A DNA stretch of 64,000 nucleotides from Candidatus Spechtbacteria bacterium RIFCSPLOWO2_12_FULL_38_22. GTDB taxonomy: Bacteria; Patescibacteriota; Minisyncoccia; Spechtbacterales; 2-12-FULL-38-22. Both the position numbers and the translations under genes were made by a program. The stretch lies in assembly GCA_001820055.1 (NCBI GenBank), contig MHOK01000005.1, positions 7,371-71,370 of the forward strand. Direction: 5' to 3'. Numbering within the stretch: position 1 is the stretch's first letter; each line of letters begins with the position of its first letter. A model generated the notes under the pieces. It saw only the letters and a program-made list of their open reading frames with translations, ran no database searches and had not been told where the DNA came from. This document shows, one piece after another, positions 53,088-63,659 of the stretch.

Positions 53088-53357
53088 TTAATGGCATTTT
53101 TTTAACTGCGCAAACCCCGCTTTTAAGCCATGAAGCGCTCCGCGCTCCTTAATCGCTATTTTTGTGTACTGTGAACATGTCGGGCGGAACTTGCACTGCC
53201 CTACTGTAAAAAAACTTACAACACCGTGGTCTGGCGACAGCGTCCATTGATAAACTGTTATTAAACCTAAAAATAAAAAACTGGGAGTTCTTTTGGCCCA
53301 GCTATTGGTCAGTCTATTTTTAAAACATATTGGTTTTTTTAAATAGTTGTATTGCAT
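53088..53357 (-). CDS. yidD: Membrane protein insertion efficiency factor YidD
   Basis: YQWTLSP...CKFRPTCSQY motif. 5' end overlaps rnpA, so the true start is probably internal. Confidence 0.78.
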   Translation of the reverse strand: MQYNYLKKPICFKNRLTNSWAKRTPSFLFLGLITVYQWTLSPDHGVVSFFTVGQCKFRPTCSQYTKIAIKERGALHGLKAGFAQLKKCH

Positions 53358-53655
53358 CTTCTCTTAAATCTTCAAATTTCCTATTTTTAATGTCTTCATT
53401 ACCTATAATTATAATGTCAAACCCTAAATTTAAATTCCCAATAGCCTCACGAGCCACATGGCGCAAAACTCTTTTGTAATAGTTCTTTTTAACAGAGGTT
53501 TTTGCAATCTTCTTGCTAACAGCGACACCGACTTTTATAATTCCAAAATTATTTTTGATAATTCTTACATAAAAAAATCTCCCTCTGTATACACGACCCT
53601 TGGCAAGTGTGTATTCAAATTCTTTCGTGTTTAATCTGTGTTTTTTAGAGAACAT
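53320..53655 (-). CDS. rnpA: RNase P protein component
   Basis: 111 aa. Basic. RNR-like motif region (KKNYYKRVLRHVARE). Position between rpmH and yidD. Confidence 0.85.
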   Translation of the reverse strand: MFSKKHRLNTKEFEYTLAKGRVYRGRFFYVRIIKNNFGIIKVGVAVSKKIAKTSVKKNYYKRVLRHVAREAIGNLNLGFDIIIIGNEDIKNRKFEDLREDAIQLFKKTNMF

Positions 53656-53658
53656 ATA

Positions 53659-53802
53659 TTAAACCGCCAAACGTTTTCGTCCTTTGCTCCTGCGACGCGA
53701 CAAAACTCTACGCCCATTCTTTGTGGCGGCCCTCTTTAGAAATCCATGGGTTCTTTTTCTTCTACTTTTGCTTGGATTATATGTTTGTGCTTTTGTCGTC
53801 AT
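53659..53802 (-). CDS. rpmH: 50S ribosomal protein L34
   Basis: Manual translation of the minus strand: [47 protein letters not shown] (47 aa). Below the ORF-track length cutoff. Confidence 0.85.
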
Positions 53803-54040
53803 ATTTATAACTTTACCACTTTAATGAACTGTTTTCAAGTTAGGAAAGTGATTCCACACACACTCCACAACTTATACCCAAAATTCGTAAAAAATCAAGA
53901 TTTACAACATGGTATGTGCTCGTGGTAGAATGGAATAGAATTAATCGCCCACACTTAGTTATCGTATCCGCCAACTACAGACTGCGACAAAAAACTAAAC
54001 GTAGTCCATAGACACCTTGTGGGTGGTGGCAAATAAAATT
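53803..54040. promoter_or_regulatory. Candidate oriC / dnaA promoter region with DnaA-box-like 9-mers
   Basis: GATTCCACA, ACTCCACAA, TGTGGGTGG. Classical rpmH-dnaA position. Confidence 0.35.
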
Positions 54041-55396
54041 ATGAATGAGTATGATTTGTGGCAAGTCGTTTTAACTGAAATAGAACCTCAAATATCAAAA
54101 GCTAATTTTGTTACTTGGTTTAAAAACACTTATATATCTTCCAAAAAAGATGGGGTTGTTTCTGTTGCAGTACCTAATGCGTTCAGCAGAGAATGGTTAG
54201 AAAATAAATATACCAAACCAATAATGAGATCGTTGAGAAACACATCAAGAGACATTAGAGAGATTCGCTATATAATAGAAAACAAAAAACCTACGATTAT
54301 TACGGCCCAAAATCAAACAGTAGAAAAAAGGGACATTGAGGAAACACAGTTACAGTTTGAAGAGTTACAAATAGATAGTGTAACCAATCTTAACCCAAAA
54401 TACTCCTTTGACAACTTCGTTGTAGGCTCCTCCAACGAGTTGGCGCATGCCGCAGCCATCTCAATAACAAAAAAACCCGGAGCATTGTATAACCCACTAT
54501 TCATATACGGGGGGGTGGGACTAGGAAAAACACACCTGCTTCAAGCGATAGGAAATACTTTTGCCCAAACCAGAAAAAAAGTTCTTTACATAACGTCCGA
54601 ACGCTTTACAAGCGAGTTTATAACCTCTATATCCAACCAAACAATAGATAGTTTTAAAAATAAATATAGAAACAAGGATGTTTTAATAATAGACGATATA
54701 CAGTTTATAGCTGGCAAAGAGCAGACCCAAGAAGAGTTCTTCCACACATTCAACACCCTACATGAAACAAACAAACAAATAATTCTTAGCTCCGACAGAA
54801 CCCCACGGTCCATACCAACCCTAGAAGAAAGGTTGCGATCCAGGTTCGAGGGTGGGATGTTGGTAGACATAGGATACCCAAACTATGAGATGCGGGTAGC
54901 TATTTTAAAAACGAAGGTTAAAAGTAAAAATATCTTTTTATCCGAGGAGGTTATTAACTACATAGCAAACAATATACAAAAAAACGTACGAGAATTGGAG
55001 GGTGCCCTTAATTTGGTCATCGCCTCCTCAAAACTCAACAACAACGAGACGAACCTAGAACAGGCTAAAAAAATACTATCTCACATAACCAGCAAACCAA
55101 ACAAGCCGATTAGTTACAAAAAAATATTTAAGACAGTTTCTGATTTCTATGAGATAGAGGAAAAGTCTCTTTTGGGCAAAAATAGAAAAAGAGAAATTGT
55201 TTTACCCAGACAAATTGCTATGTTTTTAATGCGGTCTGAACTAAAAGCCTCTTACCCGTTTATAGGAGAAAGGTTTGGTGGCAAAGACCACACAACAGTC
55301 ATGTATGCTTGTGCAAAAATAGAAAAAGAAGTAAACACTAATCACAATTTAGAACAAGAAATAGGACTGATAAAACAACAAATATATAGTGACTAA
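54017..55396 (+). CDS. dnaA: Chromosomal replication initiator DnaA
   Basis: AAA+ Walker A GGVGLGKTHLL. Sensor motifs. C-terminal DNA-binding domain. Likely true start at 54041 (MNEYDLWQ). Confidence 0.9.
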   Translation: MWVVANKIMNEYDLWQVVLTEIEPQISKANFVTWFKNTYISSKKDGVVSVAVPNAFSREWLENKYTKPIMRSLRNTSRDIREIRYIIENKKPTIITAQNQTVEKRDIEETQLQFEELQIDSVTNLNPKYSFDNFVVGSSNELAHAAAISITKKPGALYNPLFIYGGVGLGKTHLLQAIGNTFAQTRKKVLYITSERFTSEFITSISNQTIDSFKNKYRNKDVLIIDDIQFIAGKEQTQEEFFHTFNTLHETNKQIILSSDRTPRSIPTLEERLRSRFEGGMLVDIGYPNYEMRVAILKTKVKSKNIFLSEEVINYIANNIQKNVRELEGALNLVIASSKLNNNETNLEQAKKILSHITSKPNKPISYKKIFKTVSDFYEIEEKSLLGKNRKREIVLPRQIAMFLMRSELKASYPFIGERFGGKDHTTVMYACAKIEKEVNTNHNLEQEIGLIKQQIYSD

Positions 55397-55623
55397 TATA
55401 TCAATTTTGTGGAAAAGTTGTTGAAAAGTGTGTATATATCCCTTAGGATATCTATGTTGAAAAAACTCTAATCGTTTTCTAAAAAATAATTAACCCGCTT
55501 CTTTCCAACAAAAATCCACAACGTTATACAAACTAGTTTGCACAGGTTTTTCCATCTAACAAATACTGATCACAAAGCCAAAAAATAGTTTTTGAACAAA
55601 TTTATAACTATACTATAACAACT
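55397..55623. promoter_or_regulatory. Candidate oriC segment (dnaA-dnaN intergenic) with DnaA-box-like 9-mers and AT-rich stretch
   Basis: TTGTGGAAA (TTTCCACAA) and AAATCCACA. AT-rich tracts. Confidence 0.35.
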
Positions 55624-56736
55624 ATGAAACTGTATATAAAAAAAGAGTTATTTCTGAAAGCAATAAGCGCAACCGAAAAAAATACCGGAAAAAATTTTAC
55701 ATTACCTATATTAAACAATGTTTTAATAAAAACTGTTGAAAACATATTGCAATTAACCTCTACAGATTTGGAATTAGCAACAATTGCTGAGGTGCCTGCA
55801 AAAATAGAAGAAGAAGGAAGTATCGCGATGAACCCAAAAACCTTAAGCGGTTTTTTAGTCAATTCCCCAGAGGGAGAAGTTTTATTAAAAACAAAAAAAG
55901 ACATCTTACTTGTAGAGCATAGAAATTATAAAACAAACATTAAAGGTTTTTTAGATAAAGATTTTCCATTATTACCAAAAACAGATAAAAAGAAGTTTTT
56001 TACAATTCCGTCTACCATTATCACCAGTGCTTTGTCCCAAGTAATAAATTCTGTCTCTATCAGTGATTTGAAGCTGGAACTCACAGGAGTGTTTTTTAAG
56101 ATTACAAAAAATAATATTAAACTGGTGTCCACGGATTCTTTTAGATTATCTGAAAAAACACTTTCTAGAGATAAATCAGAAAATGTTAACGAGGAAAGTT
56201 TTATATTGCCGACGAAAGCGGCGAACGAGATTATAAGAAATTATCAAGACCTCAACGATATTTTGTTTTTTTATATAGACAAAAACCAAGTTACTATACA
56301 AAATGAGGAAAACAAAAAGGTAAATTTAAAAATTATATCCAAAATTATTGAGGGCGAGTATCCAGAATATTCCCAAATAATACCCAAAGAATTTACAACA
56401 AAAGTAATTATTTCTAAAAAGGAGTTTGCGCAACAAATAAAAAGCGCGGGCTTATTTGCAAGCAGAATAAACGACATTACTCTCAGGGTTGAAAAAGATA
56501 AATTGACAATACATTCGCAAAATAATGATGTAGGAGAGTTCAGTTCTTATATTGAGGCCCATGTGGAGGGGGAAGAACAGGAAATGAGATTTAATTATAA
56601 CTACCTTTTATCTGGGTTGAATAATATAGAAGGAGATGAAGTTGTGTTTAAGATAAATAGGTCTGACGGCCCAACTCTTGTGGAATCTGTTAAAAACAAA
56701 GATTACTTCTATATTCTGATGCCAATTAGAAAATAA
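55624..56736 (+). CDS. dnaN: DNA polymerase III beta sliding clamp
   Basis: 370 aa. Three-domain clamp. Immediately downstream of dnaA. Confidence 0.9.
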   Translation: MKLYIKKELFLKAISATEKNTGKNFTLPILNNVLIKTVENILQLTSTDLELATIAEVPAKIEEEGSIAMNPKTLSGFLVNSPEGEVLLKTKKDILLVEHRNYKTNIKGFLDKDFPLLPKTDKKKFFTIPSTIITSALSQVINSVSISDLKLELTGVFFKITKNNIKLVSTDSFRLSEKTLSRDKSENVNEESFILPTKAANEIIRNYQDLNDILFFYIDKNQVTIQNEENKKVNLKIISKIIEGEYPEYSQIIPKEFTTKVIISKKEFAQQIKSAGLFASRINDITLRVEKDKLTIHSQNNDVGEFSSYIEAHVEGEEQEMRFNYNYLLSGLNNIEGDEVVFKINRSDGPTLVESVKNKDYFYILMPIRK

Positions 56737-59098: not shown

Positions 59099-60292
59099 AT
59101 GCGTATGGATATTAATTTTACACAAAGAGACATTTTAGAAAGGGGGGTGGAAGAAATTATAGAGATTACAAGCTTAAGAAAAAAGTTAAAATCTGGCAGG
59201 AAATTGCGGGTTAAATTAGGCATAGATCCAAATGCGCCGGACATACACTTGGGTCACACGGCGCCTCTTTGGAAGCTTCGACAGTTCCAAGAATTAGGAC
59301 ACAAAGCAGTGCTTATAATAGGAGATTATACAGCTTCTATAGGAGATCCTTCGGGGAAAGACGAAACACGTCCTAGTTTAACAGAGGCGCAGATTAAAGG
59401 AAACTACAAAACTTATGAAAAACAAGCGTTAAAAATTTTAGACAACAAAACTCTGGAGGTTAGGTATCAAACAGAATGGTATAAAAATTTTAATCTGAAA
59501 GATGTATTAAATTTGTTAAGGAAAGCTTCAGTTGGACGGCTTTTGCAACACGAAACATTTCGCGAACGACTTAAAAAAAAACAACAGTTCGCTGTGCATG
59601 AGATTATATACCCGTTTTTACAGGGATATGATTCTGTTGCCGTAAAAGCAGATGTTGAACTAGGTGCCACGGAACAAAAGTTTAATTTGTTGATGGGAAG
59701 GGAACTGCAAAAAGCATATGGACAGGAACAGCAGGATATTATTACGAATCCGTATTTGTTGGGTACGGACGGGAAAGAAAAAATGAGCAAATCGTTGGGT
59801 AATTATATAGCTATACAAGACAAGCCCACGGAAATGTTCGGCAAGGTTATGAGTATACGAGATAGTGAAATTGTGCAGTATTTTGAACTTGTCACACCCG
59901 TACCGTTTAAAAAAGTGCAAGAAATAAAAAAATTAAAAATAACCGGAAAAACCGCACGGGACTTAAAAGTACAACTTGCCGGAGTTATAACGGAGTTATA
60001 TTGGGGCAAGGAAGAGGCAGAGAAAGCGCAGGAAAGATTTGAAACACAATTCCAAAAAAGGGGAGTGTCAAAAGGACTAAGCGTGGTGCGTGTTTCTGGG
60101 TCTGATAGCACAATCATCACAATACTAGTTGATGCTGGATTTGTGTCTTCTAAAAACGAGGCTAGAAGGTTAGTAGAACAAGGGGCTGTATATTTTGATA
60201 ATGAGAGAATGGCAGAGTATAACGATCCTATTCCTAAACGCTCTTTTATACTTAAGGCAGGAAGAAAGATGGCAAAAATAGTGCCAAAATAA
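59099..60292 (+). CDS. tyrS: Tyrosine--tRNA ligase
   Basis: Class I HIGH variant (HLGHTAP) and KMSKS (KMSKSLGN). C-terminal S4-like domain. Confidence 0.9.
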   Translation: MRMDINFTQRDILERGVEEIIEITSLRKKLKSGRKLRVKLGIDPNAPDIHLGHTAPLWKLRQFQELGHKAVLIIGDYTASIGDPSGKDETRPSLTEAQIKGNYKTYEKQALKILDNKTLEVRYQTEWYKNFNLKDVLNLLRKASVGRLLQHETFRERLKKKQQFAVHEIIYPFLQGYDSVAVKADVELGATEQKFNLLMGRELQKAYGQEQQDIITNPYLLGTDGKEKMSKSLGNYIAIQDKPTEMFGKVMSIRDSEIVQYFELVTPVPFKKVQEIKKLKITGKTARDLKVQLAGVITELYWGKEEAEKAQERFETQFQKRGVSKGLSVVRVSGSDSTIITILVDAGFVSSKNEARRLVEQGAVYFDNERMAEYNDPIPKRSFILKAGRKMAKIVPK

Positions 60293-60314
60293 AAAAGAGG
60301 TGTACACCTCTTTT

Positions 60315-61751
60315 TTATTTTGGCTTAGTGTTAGAATAAGTTTTGGTAATTTCGGCACTTTTTTTTGTTAATCCCGCACTTCTAGTTTTTTTACTTTTTT
60401 GAATTTTGTATTCGTATACCAAGCCGTCTATATTGTTAATAAAGTAACCTTTTTTCTTACCCTTTTTAGTAAACCCAGCTTTTTTGAAGGACAGCTGTCT
60501 TTTTTTATTGTTAGCTGGAACGATAACATTGATTTTTTTGTTTTTCGCAGTTTTGGATATCTCTATTAATTGTCGTATCATCCTTCTTCCCATTCTTTGT
60601 CCGCGGAAGTCCTTGAGTATACCCATGCGTGTTATTCTGCGCATTTTGCCACTTAAATAGTGGGTCATAAAAGCTATGGGCTCTTGATTTTTGTAAATTA
60701 CAATAAGATCTCGTTGCAAAACTGTGTCTAGAAAATCTTTTTTTGTAAACGGCTTTTCAGTTTGTTCTGGATTGTCTTTTTCTATCTTGTATAAAGTATC
60801 AAATATTTTCTTTTTAGTTTTTGTGTCAAATTCTGTTTCTATGCTCCACAAATATTTTTCTTCTATGTAGGATATTAACTTTTCTGCCACGTTAATTTTG
60901 GTTGCGGATTCAAAGCCCTCAAATCCGGGGAAGATATTTACCTCTAAAATATAGTGTTTATTTTTATATTTAATGATATCTACTCCCGCAAACTCTGCGT
61001 TAAATATTTTTGCCGCTTTTAGCGCTAGGCGTTGCATTTCAGGCGTTACTTCGGCTTCTTCCGCCGCACCTCCTAAAGACACGTTGGCCCTGAATTCCCC
61101 TTCTTTGGCTGTTCTTTTCATAGCGCCTATTACTTTACCCCCTATCACTATGACCCTGTAGTCATGTTTGGTCGGTATGTATTTTTGTATCAACACCTTG
61201 CCCGGACCAGAGACCCCCACTAGGTTCTCTATTTGTTCCGTCTTTTCTATAAGAAACACTTGAGCACCCCTTGAACCTTCAACATTTTTTGCTATGTATG
61301 GTTTTTTAAATTTTTTATAAACAGTATCCGGTGTGTGCTTTCCTGTATATAGAAGGGACGTTACAATAGGAAGCCCATTTTTAGCTAGCAAGTAATGTTG
61401 TAGTAGTTTATCGTAGAAGGGTATTTTTATTATGGTTTTTTCGTTCAGTACGTGTTTATAGTGTTCGTTTATATATCGAACCAGAAGTAAATAGTGTCGA
61501 TATAAATGACTTACATATGTTGTTTCTTCTTTTCCTTTAAATAGTGGATTTCTTGGGATTATGTAATCGTAGTATTTTAGATCGGTTCCGTTTGGTCTTT
61601 TTATAACCACGCCTTTTTTAGAAAATTGGAAAACAAGTCCACCCCAAAACATGTAGTTTACCGTGTGACCTCTTTTTTTAAGTTCTTGTACCAACCTTCT
61701 TGATACGTACGGTAGTTTTTTAGCGCTAAATCCCAGTAGTAATATTCTCAT
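60315..61751 (-). CDS. RimK-type ATP-grasp ligase fused to C-terminal GNAT acetyltransferase
   Basis: ATP-grasp core closely matching RimK (IQKYIPTKHDYRVIVIGGKVIGAMKRTAKEGEFRANVSLGGAAE...GVDII...LEVNIFPGFEGFE). C-terminal ~130 aa with GNAT acetyl-CoA motif (RGQRMGRRMIRQLIE). Confidence 0.68.
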   Translation of the reverse strand: MRILLLGFSAKKLPYVSRRLVQELKKRGHTVNYMFWGGLVFQFSKKGVVIKRPNGTDLKYYDYIIPRNPLFKGKEETTYVSHLYRHYLLLVRYINEHYKHVLNEKTIIKIPFYDKLLQHYLLAKNGLPIVTSLLYTGKHTPDTVYKKFKKPYIAKNVEGSRGAQVFLIEKTEQIENLVGVSGPGKVLIQKYIPTKHDYRVIVIGGKVIGAMKRTAKEGEFRANVSLGGAAEEAEVTPEMQRLALKAAKIFNAEFAGVDIIKYKNKHYILEVNIFPGFEGFESATKINVAEKLISYIEEKYLWSIETEFDTKTKKKIFDTLYKIEKDNPEQTEKPFTKKDFLDTVLQRDLIVIYKNQEPIAFMTHYLSGKMRRITRMGILKDFRGQRMGRRMIRQLIEISKTAKNKKINVIVPANNKKRQLSFKKAGFTKKGKKKGYFINNIDGLVYEYKIQKSKKTRSAGLTKKSAEITKTYSNTKPK

Positions 61752-62349
61752 ATTTTTTAATTACCCTACTTAATGCTAAAATGAGGTTCGCAAAATGTTT
61801 TTCGTTTTGTCTAACTTCCTCATTAAGTTCTAGTTGGACTGCGGGTATGTCTAGATTTCTTCTAACGTGATAGGTCAGTGTTTTACTACCAGGTCCTTTG
61901 ACTGACCTGAAAAATCCTTTACTCACGTCCTCTTTTAAGAAAAAAGACTCAAAGCTTTTTAATAGTAGTTCTTCGAGGGCCTGGTCATGTTTATGTGTTT
62001 GAGGGAATATAAAATCATAGTCAATTAAAAAAGGTCTTGAATGTTTTGATCCATGAACATCGAGCACTAAAGATATATTATTCTCTTTTACTATTTCTCT
62101 AACAAATTTTTTGTATACCCTATAAACTTTTTTGTCCCAGTTTTCTAAAATACTTTCGCCGGTTTCTAATTGGGTGAATATGCCCCATACTCCGATTTCG
62201 TCGCATAATACCTCTACAATCTCTGACACCCTTTTTTCGAATTTTGTGTAAGGACCCTCCTTATCTTCTTTTAATAACGGAACAGCGTGAGGCGCGGAGA
62301 TTAGTACAGGAAACTTGCCTTCTATGATTTTTATATTTGGGTGTTCCAT
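61726..62349 (-). CDS. N-formylglutamate amidohydrolase-family (M14-like fold) hydrolase
   Basis: ISAPHAVP ... LDVHGS pattern typical of the FGase / succinylglutamate-desuccinylase-like superfamily. Overlaps the RimK-GNAT start by 26 nt (operon). Confidence 0.45.
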   Translation of the reverse strand: MEHPNIKIIEGKFPVLISAPHAVPLLKEDKEGPYTKFEKRVSEIVEVLCDEIGVWGIFTQLETGESILENWDKKVYRVYKKFVREIVKENNISLVLDVHGSKHSRPFLIDYDFIFPQTHKHDQALEELLLKSFESFFLKEDVSKGFFRSVKGPGSKTLTYHVRRNLDIPAVQLELNEEVRQNEKHFANLILALSRVIKKYENITTGI

Positions 62350-62350
62350 A

Positions 62351-62851
62351 TTATGTTCTTTCTAGGTAATTCAACGAACTGGCACAACACATAGCAACCG
62401 CCAACGCGTCAGCCGCATCATCTGGGTGTGGCACTTCGTTTAGTTTTAATAAATTTTTAACCATACTCTGTACTTGTTTTTTGTCTGCTTGGCCATATCC
62501 GGTTACAGCTTGTTTTACTTGTAGTGGGGTAAATGAATAACATTGTTTATGGTTATCTGCGGCAAGAAGCAACACGATACCCCTGGCTTGGCTGACAGTT
62601 ATGAGCGTTTTTTGATTTTTAAAATAAAAAATATCCTCGACAGCAATAACGTGAGGATTGTATTGTTTTACCATACTTTGCAGTGTTTTGTAAATATCCC
62701 CTAGTCGTAGATGTTCGGGAGTATTCATATCTGTTTCTATTATACCATGTGCTATATGGTTTATGTTAGAATCCTCGAGGCTTATAAGCCCGTATCCCAT
62801 ACGCGCGATTCCAGGGTCAATACCAAGTATAATTTTTTTCGCTTCGCTCAT
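62351..62851 (-). CDS. ruvC: Holliday junction resolvase RuvC
   Basis: ILGIDPGIARMGYGL. Catalytic acidic residues (D, E, D, D). 166 aa. Confidence 0.85.
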   Translation of the reverse strand: MSEAKKIILGIDPGIARMGYGLISLEDSNINHIAHGIIETDMNTPEHLRLGDIYKTLQSMVKQYNPHVIAVEDIFYFKNQKTLITVSQARGIVLLLAADNHKQCYSFTPLQVKQAVTGYGQADKKQVQSMVKNLLKLNEVPHPDDAADALAVAMCCASSLNYLERT

Positions 62852-62936
62852 AAGATTATAGGTATTAGGTGATAGGTATTAGGTCGCTACGCTCTTGGGT
62901 TTAAAACTTACCAGCCCAAAACCTATAACCGATAAC

Positions 62937-63659
62937 CTACTTTGTGTTTGAATAAATTGCTTGTACATCGTCGTTTTCATCAAGTGCCTCAAATAATGCC
63001 TCTAGTTTTTTTTGGTCTCCTTGTGAGATTTCTATTTCATCTTTTGCAACCCACTCTAGACCACTATCTACATTTTGAAAACCTTCCTTTTCAAGTATAG
63101 ATTGCATTGCTTGCAAGTTGTTTATATTTGTATAAATAATCACGCATCCCTCTTCTTCTTTCATGTCTTGCGCTCCTGCGTCTATCGCACGCAGTTCAAA
63201 TTCTTCTATATTTTTTACATTATCCTTGGGTATTTTTAGTACACCTACATATTGGAACATCCAGCGAACACCACCCTCTCCAACTGGTTTTCCGTTATTT
63301 TTGTTTAATATTTGTTTGACTTCAGACGCAGTTCGATTTCGGTTGTCAGTAATTGTTTGTATAAGTAATGCCGAATTCCCAGGCCCGTATGCTTCCATAA
63401 GCAGTTCTTCTAGTTGTGTGCCGCTTTTATCTTCTCCCGTACCCTTTTTTATGGCGGCTTCAATTTTATCTTTGGGCATGTTTAGCTCTTTTGCTTTTTC
63501 AACTTCCGTACGGAGCGTATAATTTGCTCCTAGGTCTCCGCCCCCATGCGTGGCGGCCACTGTTATTATCTTTGCAAGTTTACCAAAAACATCAGCACGT
63601 TTTTGGTCCATCGCAGTTTTTTTGTTTTTTATATTAGCCCATTTACTGTGACCAGACAT
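62937..63659 (-). CDS. yebC: YebC/PmpR-family transcriptional regulator
   Basis: MSGHSKWANIKNKK N-terminus is diagnostic. Confidence 0.9.
   Translation of the reverse strand: MSGHSKWANIKNKKTAMDQKRADVFGKLAKIITVAATHGGGDLGANYTLRTEVEKAKELNMPKDKIEAAIKKGTGEDKSGTQLEELLMEAYGPGNSALLIQTITDNRNRTASEVKQILNKNNGKPVGEGGVRWMFQYVGVLKIPKDNVKNIEEFELRAIDAGAQDMKEEEGCVIIYTNINNLQAMQSILEKEGFQNVDSGLEWVAKDEIEISQGDQKKLEALFEALDENDDVQAIYSNTK

What the first reader, a model, noticed from the sequence alone, without database searches (positions are those of the whole stretch)
60315..62349. RimK-like ATP-grasp ligase fused to a GNAT acetyltransferase, co-transcribed with an FGase-family amidohydrolase
The ATP-grasp core is nearly colinear with E. 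coli RimK (poly-alpha-glutamate ligase) but carries a C-terminal GNAT domain. The overlapping upstream gene encodes an M14-like/N-formylglutamate-amidohydrolase-family enzyme. A ligase/acetylase/amidase triad suggests a small peptide or amino-acid-conjugate modification cycle. That could be a ribosomal protein S6-like tail modification with removal, or synthesis of an N-acetylated oligo-glutamate metabolite.
Basis: partly seen in the sequence, partly recalled or inferred. Interest (0 to 1): 0.5.

Follow-up and report, generated by a model that had tools for sequence, protein, structure and literature searches.

The report
Glutamate ligase–acetyltransferase fusion with partner amidase
A tiny groundwater bacterium (Candidatus Spechtbacteria) encodes one protein that joins a glutamate-adding enzyme to an acetyl-adding enzyme, next to an uncharacterised enzyme that probably removes glutamate; all three parts belong to known enzyme families, but the target molecule is unknown.

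Summary

Three points are new. The GNAT derives from RimI-type N-α-acetyltransferases; one relative passes the rimI cut-off. The fusion was found only in Spechtbacterales-type CPR bacteria. The hydrolase sits directly upstream in all 11 loci of the main clade. In sister lineages that place holds an Rlo-like pair that includes a retropepsin of a type known to cut polyglutamate.

My best reading (about 0.38) is a cytoplasmic build, cap and recycle module for short N-acetylated α-glutamate chains. The main rival (about 0.27) is modification of the ribosomal bS6/bS18 pair. I could not retrieve S6 from this genome, so the two remain unresolved. It is a new variant of a known kind, of moderate interest.

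The parts
61726..62349 (-). 207-aa cytoplasmic metallo-amidohydrolase candidate. It is a remote FGase-superfamily member with a PghP/FGase/Amidase_3-type fold. Predicted metal and catalytic residues are H21, E38, D97, H99 and E174.
60852..61751 (-). Residues 1-300 of the fusion: RimK-family pre-ATP-grasp and ATP-grasp α-L-glutamate ligase domain.
   Evidence: PF08443 150 bits, Rimk_N weak. TIGR00768 187.6 bits, above 143.4. Aligns to E. coli RimK 13-288. ATP/Mg motif residues K155, R199, R213, N223, D258, E270 and N272 are invariant in 26 homologues. Foldseek top hits RimK 5zct/5zk6 and ArgX 3vpb.
60405..60845 (-). Residues 303-449 of the fusion: GNAT domain of the RimI / N-α-acetyltransferase type.
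   Evidence: Acetyltransf_1 and Acetyltransf_7 above gathering score. AF2 secondary structure β1-α1-α2-β2-β3-β4-α3-β5-α4-β6-β7 with pLDDT mostly 85-94. Nearest solved sequences are Naa50, archaeal Ard1/SSO0209, Naa30 and RimI. All 14 tested homologues hit TIGR01575 rimI. One (P0033) scores 102.5 bits against a cut-off of 86.4; the window protein scores 37.9.
60582..60605 (-). Residues 383-390, R-G-Q-R-M-G-R-R: motif-A-like acetyl-CoA pyrophosphate-binding segment at the β4/α3 junction.
   Evidence: G384, Q385, R386, G388, R389 and R390 are at least 90% conserved. β4 spans 370-378 and α3 spans 387-401 in the model. HMMER aligns the segment to the R-R-L-G-I-G motif of Naa50.
60318..60392 (-). 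Residues 454-478: disordered, Lys-rich C-terminal tail after a conserved K-G-x-G-L-T motif.
   Evidence: pLDDT below 50 for 454-478. Tails are basic and variable in length across homologues.
61726..61751 (-). 26-nt overlap between the end of the hydrolase gene and the start of the fusion gene (probable translational coupling).
   Evidence: The same overlap, or a gap of at most about 15 nt, is found in all relatives of the main clade.
60283..60324 (.). 19-bp palindromic hairpin flanked by A and T runs: a bidirectional intrinsic terminator shared by the fusion gene and the convergent tyrS.
   Evidence: RNA fold -26.7 kcal/mol, z = -9.8 against shuffles.
62351..63659 (-). Upstream same-strand genes ruvC (62351-62851) and yebC (62937-63659). 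They are probably in the same transcript as the hydrolase and the fusion. This is context, not part of the module.
   Evidence: Pfam RuvC and TACO1/YebC. 1-nt gap between ruvC and the hydrolase. The same gene order occurs in relatives.

Best explanation
This is a three-activity cytoplasmic module that makes, caps and recycles short α-linked glutamate chains.

Shown: the RimK domain has every ATP-grasp catalytic motif, and its closest characterised relatives ligate L-glutamate to a C-terminal α-carboxylate.

Shown: the fused domain is a folded GNAT, descended from RimI-type N-α-acetyltransferases, with a conserved CoA-binding segment.

Shown: the partner gene encodes an FGase/PghP-fold metallohydrolase with its H/E/H/E-type residues intact, and it is translationally coupled to the fusion.

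Inferred: the ligase builds (Glu)n from free glutamate, as E. coli RimK can do in vitro. The GNAT acetylates the single free α-amino group of the chain, giving N-acetyl-oligo-α-glutamate. From the C-terminal end, every amide bond in Ac-(α-Glu)n is an 'N-acyl-L-glutamate' bond, which is the bond FGase cleaves. So the hydrolase could strip Glu residues one at a time and finally deacetylate Ac-Glu, returning glutamate and acetate. The Lys-rich tail would hold the anionic product.

The physiological role is a guess: an anionic solute, a glutamate buffer or osmotic-stress protection. That guess rests on analogy with NAGGN and with the Rlo system that accompanies this ligase in sister lineages.
For: The RimK-family assignment and intact motifs are.

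The GNAT is NAT/RimI-like, meaning an enzyme class that acetylates peptide α-amino groups. Its motif A is conserved and the domain is well folded.

The hydrolase model's four best structural matches all hydrolyse, or belong to families that hydrolyse, amide bonds to glutamate: PghP, YndL, FGase and Atu2144. It is homologous to a true FGase.

The hydrolase is adjacent to the fusion in 11 of 11 main-clade loci whose fusions are 52-64% identical to the window protein, always overlapping or within about 15 nt.

The closest relative has a second, canonical PF05013 FGase gene abutting the other end of the fusion.

In three sister lineages the same RimK clade sits inside RloB/RloC::RloA-like clusters and the FGase-fold gene is absent. 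RloA and RimB retropepsins cleave polyglutamate and counteract the ligase (PMC11957051). This points to a non-orthologous swap of the 'eraser'.

There are precedents for acetylation plus peptide ligation making an N-acetyl peptide. Ngg does both in one enzyme (PMC8070244). NAT8L plus RIMKLA/B make NAAG, which a zinc peptidase degrades (PMC8836185).

E. coli RimK makes free poly-α-glutamate (cited in PMC11957051).
Against: There is no biochemical evidence, and the product has never been observed.

The RimK domain fails every equivalog cut-off (S6 ligase 130.9 against 331, MptN 128.9 against 350, LysX 121.4 against 275.6). Neither the amino acid added nor the acceptor is established.

The window's GNAT has diverged far from RimI (37.9 bits against a cut-off of 86.4). 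Its motif A has Arg where the central Gly usually is. The position of the usual catalytic Tyr is Phe in most members. It could therefore be a binding or regulatory domain rather than a catalyst.

The hydrolase family is much wider than the fusion: 609 representatives at E<=1e-3. In Dojkabacteria and Microgenomates it stands next to recA-recX-recJ with no ATP-grasp gene nearby. Its ancestral substrate is therefore something else.

The whole neighbourhood (ruvB-yebC-ruvC ... tyrS-PBP-dnaN-dnaA) is syntenic in these genomes, so adjacency alone is weak evidence.

NAT-type GNATs and RimK both have ribosomal-protein substrates in model organisms.
Confidence: 0.38

Rival explanations
1. Two-ended ribosomal-protein modification. 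The RimK domain oligoglutamylates the C-terminus of bS6, and the RimI-derived domain acetylates the N-terminus of its heterodimer partner bS18 (or of bS6). The FGase-fold hydrolase is the deglutamylase, playing the part RimB plays in Pseudomonas. The Lys-rich tail docks the enzyme on rRNA.
For: The best solved match of the ligase domain is E. coli RimK, including the RimK-RpsF complex 5zk6. The top NCBIfam equivalog is the S6-glutamate ligase. The best family for all 14 GNAT domains tested is rimI, and P0033 passes its cut-off. bS6 and bS18 act as a heterodimer, and RimK modifies bS6 (PMC10931766). The RimK/RimB writer-eraser pair is established (PMC11957051). The C-terminal tail is basic and disordered. 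The genes lie among core information-processing genes.
Against: The S6-ligase equivalog score is far below its cut-off (130.9 against 331) and no better than the MptN or LysX scores. The window GNAT is far below the rimI cut-off. The nearest unfused relatives sit in Rlo-like clusters with a 7TM membrane protein, not with ribosomal genes. No rpsF or rpsR is present in the window or the loci, so the required Glu-ending S6 tail is untested. FGase-family enzymes are known for small substrates.
Confidence: 0.27
2. The hydrolase is functionally unrelated to the fusion. It is a general CPR housekeeping amidase, for example for N-acyl amino acids or γ-D-glutamyl murein peptides. It lies next to the RimK-GNAT gene only because these streamlined genomes pack genes tightly and keep synteny.
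Against: A 26-nt translational overlap or a minimal gap is kept at 52-64% protein identity. The Spechtbacterales clade is a distinct sub-branch, about 25-30% identical to the others; it has lost the DPNW/Y motif and gained two inserts. A second FGase gene was recruited beside the fusion in L017. Presence of the hydrolase is mutually exclusive with the Rlo retropepsin pair at the same position.
Confidence: 0.17
3. Cell-envelope peptide chemistry. The ligase adds Glu (or another amino acid) to a peptidoglycan or lipid-linked precursor, the GNAT modifies it, and the hydrolase is a murein-peptide amidase.
For: A class A PBP gene lies nearby in every locus. A MurF-like gene is wedged with 4-nt overlaps between RloC::RloA and the RimK-only orthologue in L015. 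An MprF-type LPG_synthase_TM gene lies next to the fusion in L006. The hydrolase fold resembles Amidase_3. Rlo mutants in Pseudomonas have morphology and β-lactam phenotypes (PMC11957051).
Against: None of the three domains has a signal peptide or a TM segment (sequences). The ligase is RimK-type, not Ddl- or Mur-type: the Ddl models match only weakly (30.9 bits for NF002378 against a cut-off of 243, 25.2 bits for TIGR01205 against 245.65). The GNAT is NAT/RimI-like, not FemX-like. The PBP is on a different transcription unit, beyond the convergent tyrS and a strong terminator.
Confidence: 0.08

Closest known systems
RimK / RimB ribosomal protein bS6 glutamylation system (E. coli, Pseudomonas)
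   Same: The ATP-grasp α-L-glutamate ligase is of the same family: about 30% identity, colinear, with the same catalytic motifs. Both are paired with a hydrolase gene, and in Pseudomonas the hydrolase removes the added glutamates (PMC11957051).
   Different: The ligase is not an orthologue by the NCBIfam cut-off (130.9 against 331). It carries a C-terminal GNAT that RimK lacks. The partner is a metallohydrolase of FGase/PghP fold, not a retropepsin. The bS6 substrate is untested.
RimI (bS18 N-terminal alanine acetyltransferase) and eukaryotic/archaeal NATs (Naa50, Naa30, Ard1)
   Same: These are the best sequence matches of the GNAT domain. One fusion homologue passes the rimI cut-off. An α1-α2 'IE...P(F/L)(T/S)..F' segment that I judge, from memory, to resemble RimI's 'PWS' region is visible.
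   Different: The window domain scores only 37.9 bits against a cut-off of 86.4. It has Arg at the central Gly of motif A and Phe at the usual catalytic Tyr position. It is fused to a ligase.
Ngg of the NAGGN osmoprotectant pathway (Sinorhizobium, Pseudomonas)
   Same: One polypeptide both N-acetylates and forms a peptide bond, producing an N-acetyl dipeptide (PMC8070244). From my own knowledge, Ngg combines a GNAT and an ATP-grasp-type ligase domain.
   Different: The domain order is reversed (from my own knowledge). No NAGGN-system model appears among the 22 NCBIfam hits. There is no asnO neighbour. The substrates there are glutamines.
Mammalian NAA/NAAG cycle: NAT8L (GNAT), RIMKLA/RIMKLB (RimK-like ligases), GCPII (zinc peptidase)
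   Same: The same three chemistries act on one small molecule: N-acetylation, RimK-type addition of Glu, and zinc-hydrolase removal of Glu (PMC8836185).
   Different: There they are separate, unlinked eukaryotic genes. The hydrolase is of M28 type. No orthology is implied.
RloABC osmotic-stress system (Pseudomonas) and its CPR-type versions
   Same: The unfused or fused orthologues of this RimK clade lie inside RloB-like 7TM plus RloC::RloA-like clusters in three sister lineages. RloA cleaves polyglutamate.
   Different: The window has no RloB, RloC or retropepsin. The FGase-fold hydrolase occupies their position.
N-formylglutamate amidohydrolase (HutG, PF05013) and poly-γ-glutamate hydrolases PghP/YndL
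   Same: The fold and the H...E...H...E-type motif layout match. There is profile-level homology to a PF05013 member. All of these act on amide bonds to glutamate.
   Different: It does not reach the PF05013 gathering score: there is no hit for the window protein, and 9 of 26 relatives hit only below threshold. It has clade-specific inserts. Its substrate is unknown.
TTLL glutamylases / CCP (M14) deglutamylases of eukaryotic tubulin (from my own knowledge)
   Same: A writer/eraser logic: an ATP-grasp enzyme adds Glu and a zinc carboxypeptidase-fold enzyme removes it.
   Different: This is analogy only. The families and the substrates differ.

Membership tests
RimK family α-L-glutamate ligases (TIGR00768 / PF08443) | Score above the curated family cut-offs | tested here: met
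   TIGR00768 187.6 bits against 143.4; PF08443 150 bits against 21
RimK family α-L-glutamate ligases (TIGR00768 / PF08443) | ATP-grasp catalytic and Mg/ATP-binding motifs present and conserved | tested here: met
   K155, R199, R213, N223, D258, E270 and N272 are invariant in 26 homologues and align to the E. coli RimK motifs
30S ribosomal protein S6--L-glutamate ligase (RimK proper, NF007764) | Equivalog score cut-off | tested here: not met
   130.9 bits against a cut-off of 331
30S ribosomal protein S6--L-glutamate ligase (RimK proper, NF007764) | The genome's bS6 ends in Glu-Glu or an acidic tail that can accept Glu | not testable with these tools
   tblastn found no rpsF or rpsR in the window or the loci fetched up to then, L001-L006.
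MptN / CofF / LysX-ArgX (other characterised RimK-family ligases) | Equivalog score cut-offs | tested here: not met
   MptN 128.9 against 350; LysX 121.4 against 275.6; CofF 71.4 against 300
GNAT acetyltransferases (PF00583 / PF13508) | Score above gathering cut-offs, and the GNAT fold | tested here: met
   30.2 bits against 20.7 and 31.8 bits against 27. The AF2 model shows the canonical β/α order at high pLDDT.
GNAT acetyltransferases (PF00583 / PF13508) | Conserved acetyl-CoA pyrophosphate-binding motif A (Q/R-x-x-G-x-G/A) | tested here: met
   (R/I)-G-Q-R-(M/I)-G-R-R lies at the β4/α3 junction, with six positions at least 90% conserved. One position deviates: Arg386 stands where the central Gly is in the HMMER register.
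GNAT acetyltransferases (PF00583 / PF13508) | General acid/base residues for catalysis (for example the motif B Tyr) | tested here: inconclusive
   The position before K-(K/R)-A-G-F is Phe in most members, Tyr in a few and Met in two. Not all active GNATs use this Tyr.
RimI, bS18-alanine N-acetyltransferase (TIGR01575) | Equivalog score cut-off of 86.4 bits | tested here: not met
   The window domain scores 37.9 bits and other main-clade domains 35-54 bits. Only the AUK048-lineage homologue P0033 passes, at 102.5 bits.
N-formylglutamate amidohydrolase family (PF05013) | Pfam gathering score of 28.9 bits | tested here: not met
   The 207-aa protein has no hit at E<=0.1. 9 of 26 family members hit only at E>=8.2e-5, with no score reaching 28.9 bits.
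N-formylglutamate amidohydrolase family (PF05013) | Detectable homology, shared fold and shared motif layout | tested here: met
Poly-γ-glutamate hydrolase PghP/YndL | Sequence-level family membership | tested here: not met
Peptidase M14 | Sequence or close structural membership | tested here: not met
Ngg (NAGGN synthesis bifunctional enzyme) | Match to a NAGGN-system model, and an asnO neighbour | tested here: not met
   No such model is among the NCBIfam hits at E<=0.1. No amidotransferase gene is in the neighbourhood.
RloABC system | RloB 7TM protein, RloC ligase and RloA retropepsin encoded together | tested here: not met
   These are absent from the window and from the main-clade loci. They are present only in the sister lineages L006/L014/L023, L015/L024 and L016.

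The most novel reading that the evidence does not exclude
The fusion is a single enzyme that marks both partners of the bS6:bS18 ribosomal heterodimer: glutamylation of the bS6 C-terminus and acetylation of an N-terminus. The unnamed FGase-fold protein is a new kind of metallo-deglutamylase that resets the mark. Ultra-small CPR symbionts would then have a compact, reversible ribosome-tuning switch.
Probability: 0.25. Interest if true: 0.65.

Novelty: new variant of a known kind. Interest (0 to 1): 0.4.

Why it matters
Why bacteria glutamylate bS6 or make poly-α-glutamate is still unclear. Here the ligase is physically fused to an N-α-acetyltransferase, and its 'eraser' has been swapped between a retropepsin and a metallohydrolase. 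That arrangement argues that addition and removal of glutamate are selected as a unit. It also offers a minimal three-activity system that could be reconstituted in vitro. The work further assigns a fold and a likely chemistry (hydrolysis of amide bonds to glutamate) to a family with no Pfam match. That family has about 600 representative clusters, and every source-named member I saw comes from a CPR bacterium and is annotated only as hypothetical protein. If the product is an N-acetyl-oligoglutamate, it would be a new small molecule for organisms thought to have almost no biosynthesis.

Tried and rejected
1. I searched for rpsF, rpsR and ssb by tblastn in the window and the loci fetched so far. 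Nothing was found, so the S6 C-terminus test could not be done.

2. I looked for any window ORF ending in an acidic Glu tail, as a possible acceptor or LysW-like carrier. None was found.

3. Sequence searches of the hydrolase and of its family profile against PDB gave only chance-level hits. Its relationships came only from the fold search and from hhalign.

4. I tested whether the hydrolase family is generally linked to ATP-grasp genes. It is not: the Dojkabacteria and Microgenomates members sit upstream of recA-recX-recJ.

5. Ngg/NAGGN orthology is rejected, because no such model was hit. A defence-system role is rejected, because there were no PADLOC hits.

6. I first considered the Mur-ligase gene beside the RimK-only orthologue in L015 as part of a cyanophycin-synthetase-like pair. 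It is MurF-like (233 bits against 59.8 and 49.4 bits for the two cyanophycin synthetase models), so it may simply be a housekeeping neighbour.

7. The Iyer et al. 2009 amidoligase survey (PMC3268129) is not held. The afdb50 fold library was unavailable.

8. Rfam found only two tRNAs in the window. The promoter scan was no better than shuffles.
Full report
**Source and setting.** The window matches contig MHOF01000004.1 of Candidatus Spechtbacteria bacterium RIFCSPLOWO2_12_FULL (GCA_001821835.1). This is a Parcubacteria-group (CPR/Patescibacteria) organism. On the minus strand the local gene order is yebC (62937-63659), ruvC (62351-62851), a 207-aa ORF (61726-62349) and a 478-aa ORF (60315-61751). 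They are followed by the convergent tyrS (59099-60292), then a class A PBP, dnaN and dnaA.

**Observation: the fusion.** The 478-aa protein matches Pfam RimK at 150 bits and two GNAT models above their gathering scores. It passes the NCBIfam RimK-family cut-off (187.6 against 143.4) but none of the equivalog cut-offs for RimK proper, MptN, LysX or CofF. phmmer aligns residues 15-298 to E. coli RimK residues 13-288 (E 3.9e-33). An AF2 model built on 26 homologues (pLDDT 83.7) has three parts: an ATP-grasp part, a complete GNAT fold at residues 303-449, and a disordered Lys-rich tail at 454-478. Its best Foldseek matches are RimK (including the RimK-RpsF complex), ArgX and LysX. Among the 50 best matches listed, no solved chain covers both domains apart from a poor match to PatZ. 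The ATP/Mg motif residues and a motif-A-like R-G-Q-R-M-G-R-R segment are conserved across the family.

**Observation: the upstream gene.** The upstream ORF overlaps the fusion by 26 nt and begins 1 nt after the ruvC stop codon. No terminator is predicted within the run. A 19-bp hairpin (-26.7 kcal/mol, z -9.8) sits between the fusion and tyrS.

**The 207-aa protein.**
- It has no Pfam, NCBIfam or PDB sequence match.
- A model from five homologues is confident (pLDDT 80.7, pTM 0.82).
- An exhaustive profile search found 609 representative proteins at E<=1e-3. The named ones are 'hypothetical proteins' of Dojkabacteria, Microgenomates and other CPR groups.
- Family-wide conserved residues are SAPH21, E/D38, D97-x-H99-G100, Q172-x-E174 and R180. 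I read this layout, from my own knowledge, as like that of Amidase_3/FGase-type metallohydrolases.
- Nine of 26 members give sub-threshold PF05013 hits, and no other family recurs.
- A bona fide PF05013 protein found in locus L017 aligns to the family profile with 96.5% probability.
- The protein is thus a remote, unnamed branch of the FGase superfamily. It is not a Pfam FGase or M14 member by threshold.

**The GNAT domain.** A profile of the C-terminal domains finds N-α-acetyltransferases as the closest solved proteins: Naa50, archaeal Ard1/SSO0209, Naa30 and RimI. All 14 domains tested hit the rimI equivalog model. The domain of the most divergent fusion (P0033) passes its cut-off (102.5 against 86.4 bits), whereas the main-clade domains score 35-54 bits. 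The fusion therefore arose from a RimK-family ligase plus a RimI-type acetyltransferase, and the GNAT domain has since diverged. In the HMMER register the central Gly of motif A is Arg386, and the usual catalytic Tyr position is mostly Phe. Catalytic competence is therefore likely but not certain.

**Distribution and context.** The word-indexed search found about 35 clusters with this architecture. All the named ones are Spechtbacteria or Spechtbacterales. Scans of species-representative genomes and JGI metagenomes returned 5 and 9 loci. My own HMM census of all loci gives four arrangements:

| Arrangement | Loci |
|---|---|
| Hydrolase immediately upstream of RimK-GNAT; 11 distinct loci, fusion proteins 52-64% identical to the window protein, always overlapping or within about 15 nt | window, L004, L005, L011, L012, L013, L017, L018, L021, L022, L025 |
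| RloB-like 7TM protein, plus an RloC-like ligase fused to an RloA-like retropepsin, upstream of RimK-GNAT; no hydrolase | L006 = L014 = L023 |
| The same Rlo pair, plus a MurF-like gene, plus a RimK-only orthologue with no GNAT | L015 = L024 |
| PKD-RloB, RimK-only, RloC | L016 |

The FGase-fold hydrolase and the Rlo pair are therefore mutually exclusive partners at one syntenic position. In L017, one of the closest relatives (64% identity), a second and canonical FGase gene abuts the 3' end of the fusion. Against a dedicated link, the hydrolase family outside Spechtbacterales stands upstream of recA-recX-recJ with no ligase nearby.

**Relevant literature.**
- RimK adds glutamates to bS6 and makes free poly-α-glutamate. 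RimB, and in vitro RloA, remove polyglutamate. Loss of the Rlo proteases is rescued by loss of the ligase RloC or of RloB (PMC11957051).
- bS6 and bS18 act as a heterodimer (PMC10931766).
- Ngg both N-acetylates and ligates to make N-acetylglutaminylglutamine (PMC8070244).
- NAAG is made by NAT8L plus RIMKLA/B and is degraded by a zinc peptidase (PMC8836185).

**Interpretation.** Three things are shown: an intact RimK-type ligase, a folded RimI-derived GNAT, and a coupled FGase-fold hydrolase. What follows is inferred. The three act on one glutamate-containing substrate. I favour a free N-acetyl-oligo-α-glutamate cycle (about 0.38), for four reasons:
- A NAT-type GNAT needs a peptide α-amine, and a RimK-made chain has exactly one.
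- Seen from the C-terminus, every bond in Ac-(Glu)n is the N-acyl-glutamate bond that FGase chemistry cleaves.
- FGase-type genes are recruited twice beside the fusion.
- The ligase clade is otherwise embedded in Rlo-type clusters rather than in ribosomal ones.

The main rival is bS6/bS18 modification (about 0.27). It is supported by both parent enzymes being 'rim' enzymes, by the basic tail, and by the RimK/RimB precedent. The remaining rivals are an unrelated housekeeping amidase (about 0.17) and envelope peptide chemistry (about 0.08).

**Verdict.** It is a new variant of known kinds, uncharacterised and confined to a CPR order, and of moderate interest. Its substrate can be settled by a simple genome check of bS6 and by in vitro assays.

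Noticed in passing
L017:7425-8183 (-): In one of the closest relatives of the window's fusion (64% identity), a 252-aa bona fide PF05013 FGase gene (50.1 bits against a cut-off of 28.9) lies convergent to the fusion and overlaps its 3' end by 4 nt. It sits between the fusion and tyrS and is absent from the window.
   Followed up: yes
L007:5001-5591, L008:5001-5591, L009:1841-2431: Dojkabacteria and Microgenomates members of the 207-aa hydrolase family (about 28% identity) are conserved immediately upstream of recA-recX-recJ and downstream of a divergent DUF5684 gene. In Spechtbacteria the family sits after ruvB-yebC-ruvC. I did not explore this recurring proximity to recombination genes.
   Followed up: partly
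L006:3754-5771; L015:540-2605; L016:636-4520: These are CPR versions of the Pseudomonas Rlo system. The RloC-like α-glutamate-ligase-like protein is fused at its C-terminus to an RloA-like retropepsin. RloB is reduced to its 7TM part in L006 and L015, or carries PKD domains in L016.
   Followed up: partly
L015:2602-3885: A MurF-like Mur ligase (TIGR01143 233 bits, below its cut-off of 288.6) is wedged, with 4-nt overlaps on both sides, between RloC::RloA and the RimK-only orthologue. It is unclear whether this link is functional or just genome compaction.
   Followed up: partly
P0165, P0183, P0174, P0187: Distant members of the hydrolase family are fused to SH3_3, fn3/Ig-like or CDC48_N-like domains, or carry long N-terminal extensions. 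This suggests secreted, cell-wall-associated relatives.
   Followed up: partly
P0039, P0045, P0046, P0049, P0050, P0052: The nearest non-CPR homologues of the ligase (33-35% identity) include proteins of 456-466 aa that also match the RimB-type retropepsin model (PF05618). By length these look like RimK-retropepsin fusions, another sign that ligase and peptidase are selected together.
   Followed up: no
window 60283-60324: A perfect 19-bp hairpin with A and T runs on either side spans the stop regions of the convergent fusion gene and tyrS. It looks like a shared bidirectional terminator (-26.7 kcal/mol, z -9.8).
   Followed up: yes
window about 53100-55600: dnaA (54017-55396) and dnaN (55624-56736) lie here. 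The matching public record has rpmH-rnpA-yidD-yidC-jag divergent from dnaA. The chromosomal replication origin is therefore probably in the intergenic region around 53.1-54.0 kb. This was not examined.
   Followed up: no
L017:9821-12190: The class A PBP of this relative ends in an acidic tail, ...GIVEEDE. The window's PBP ends ...PAQSDI. It is probably incidental, but it is the only Glu-rich C-terminus I saw near any of these ligase genes.
   Followed up: no
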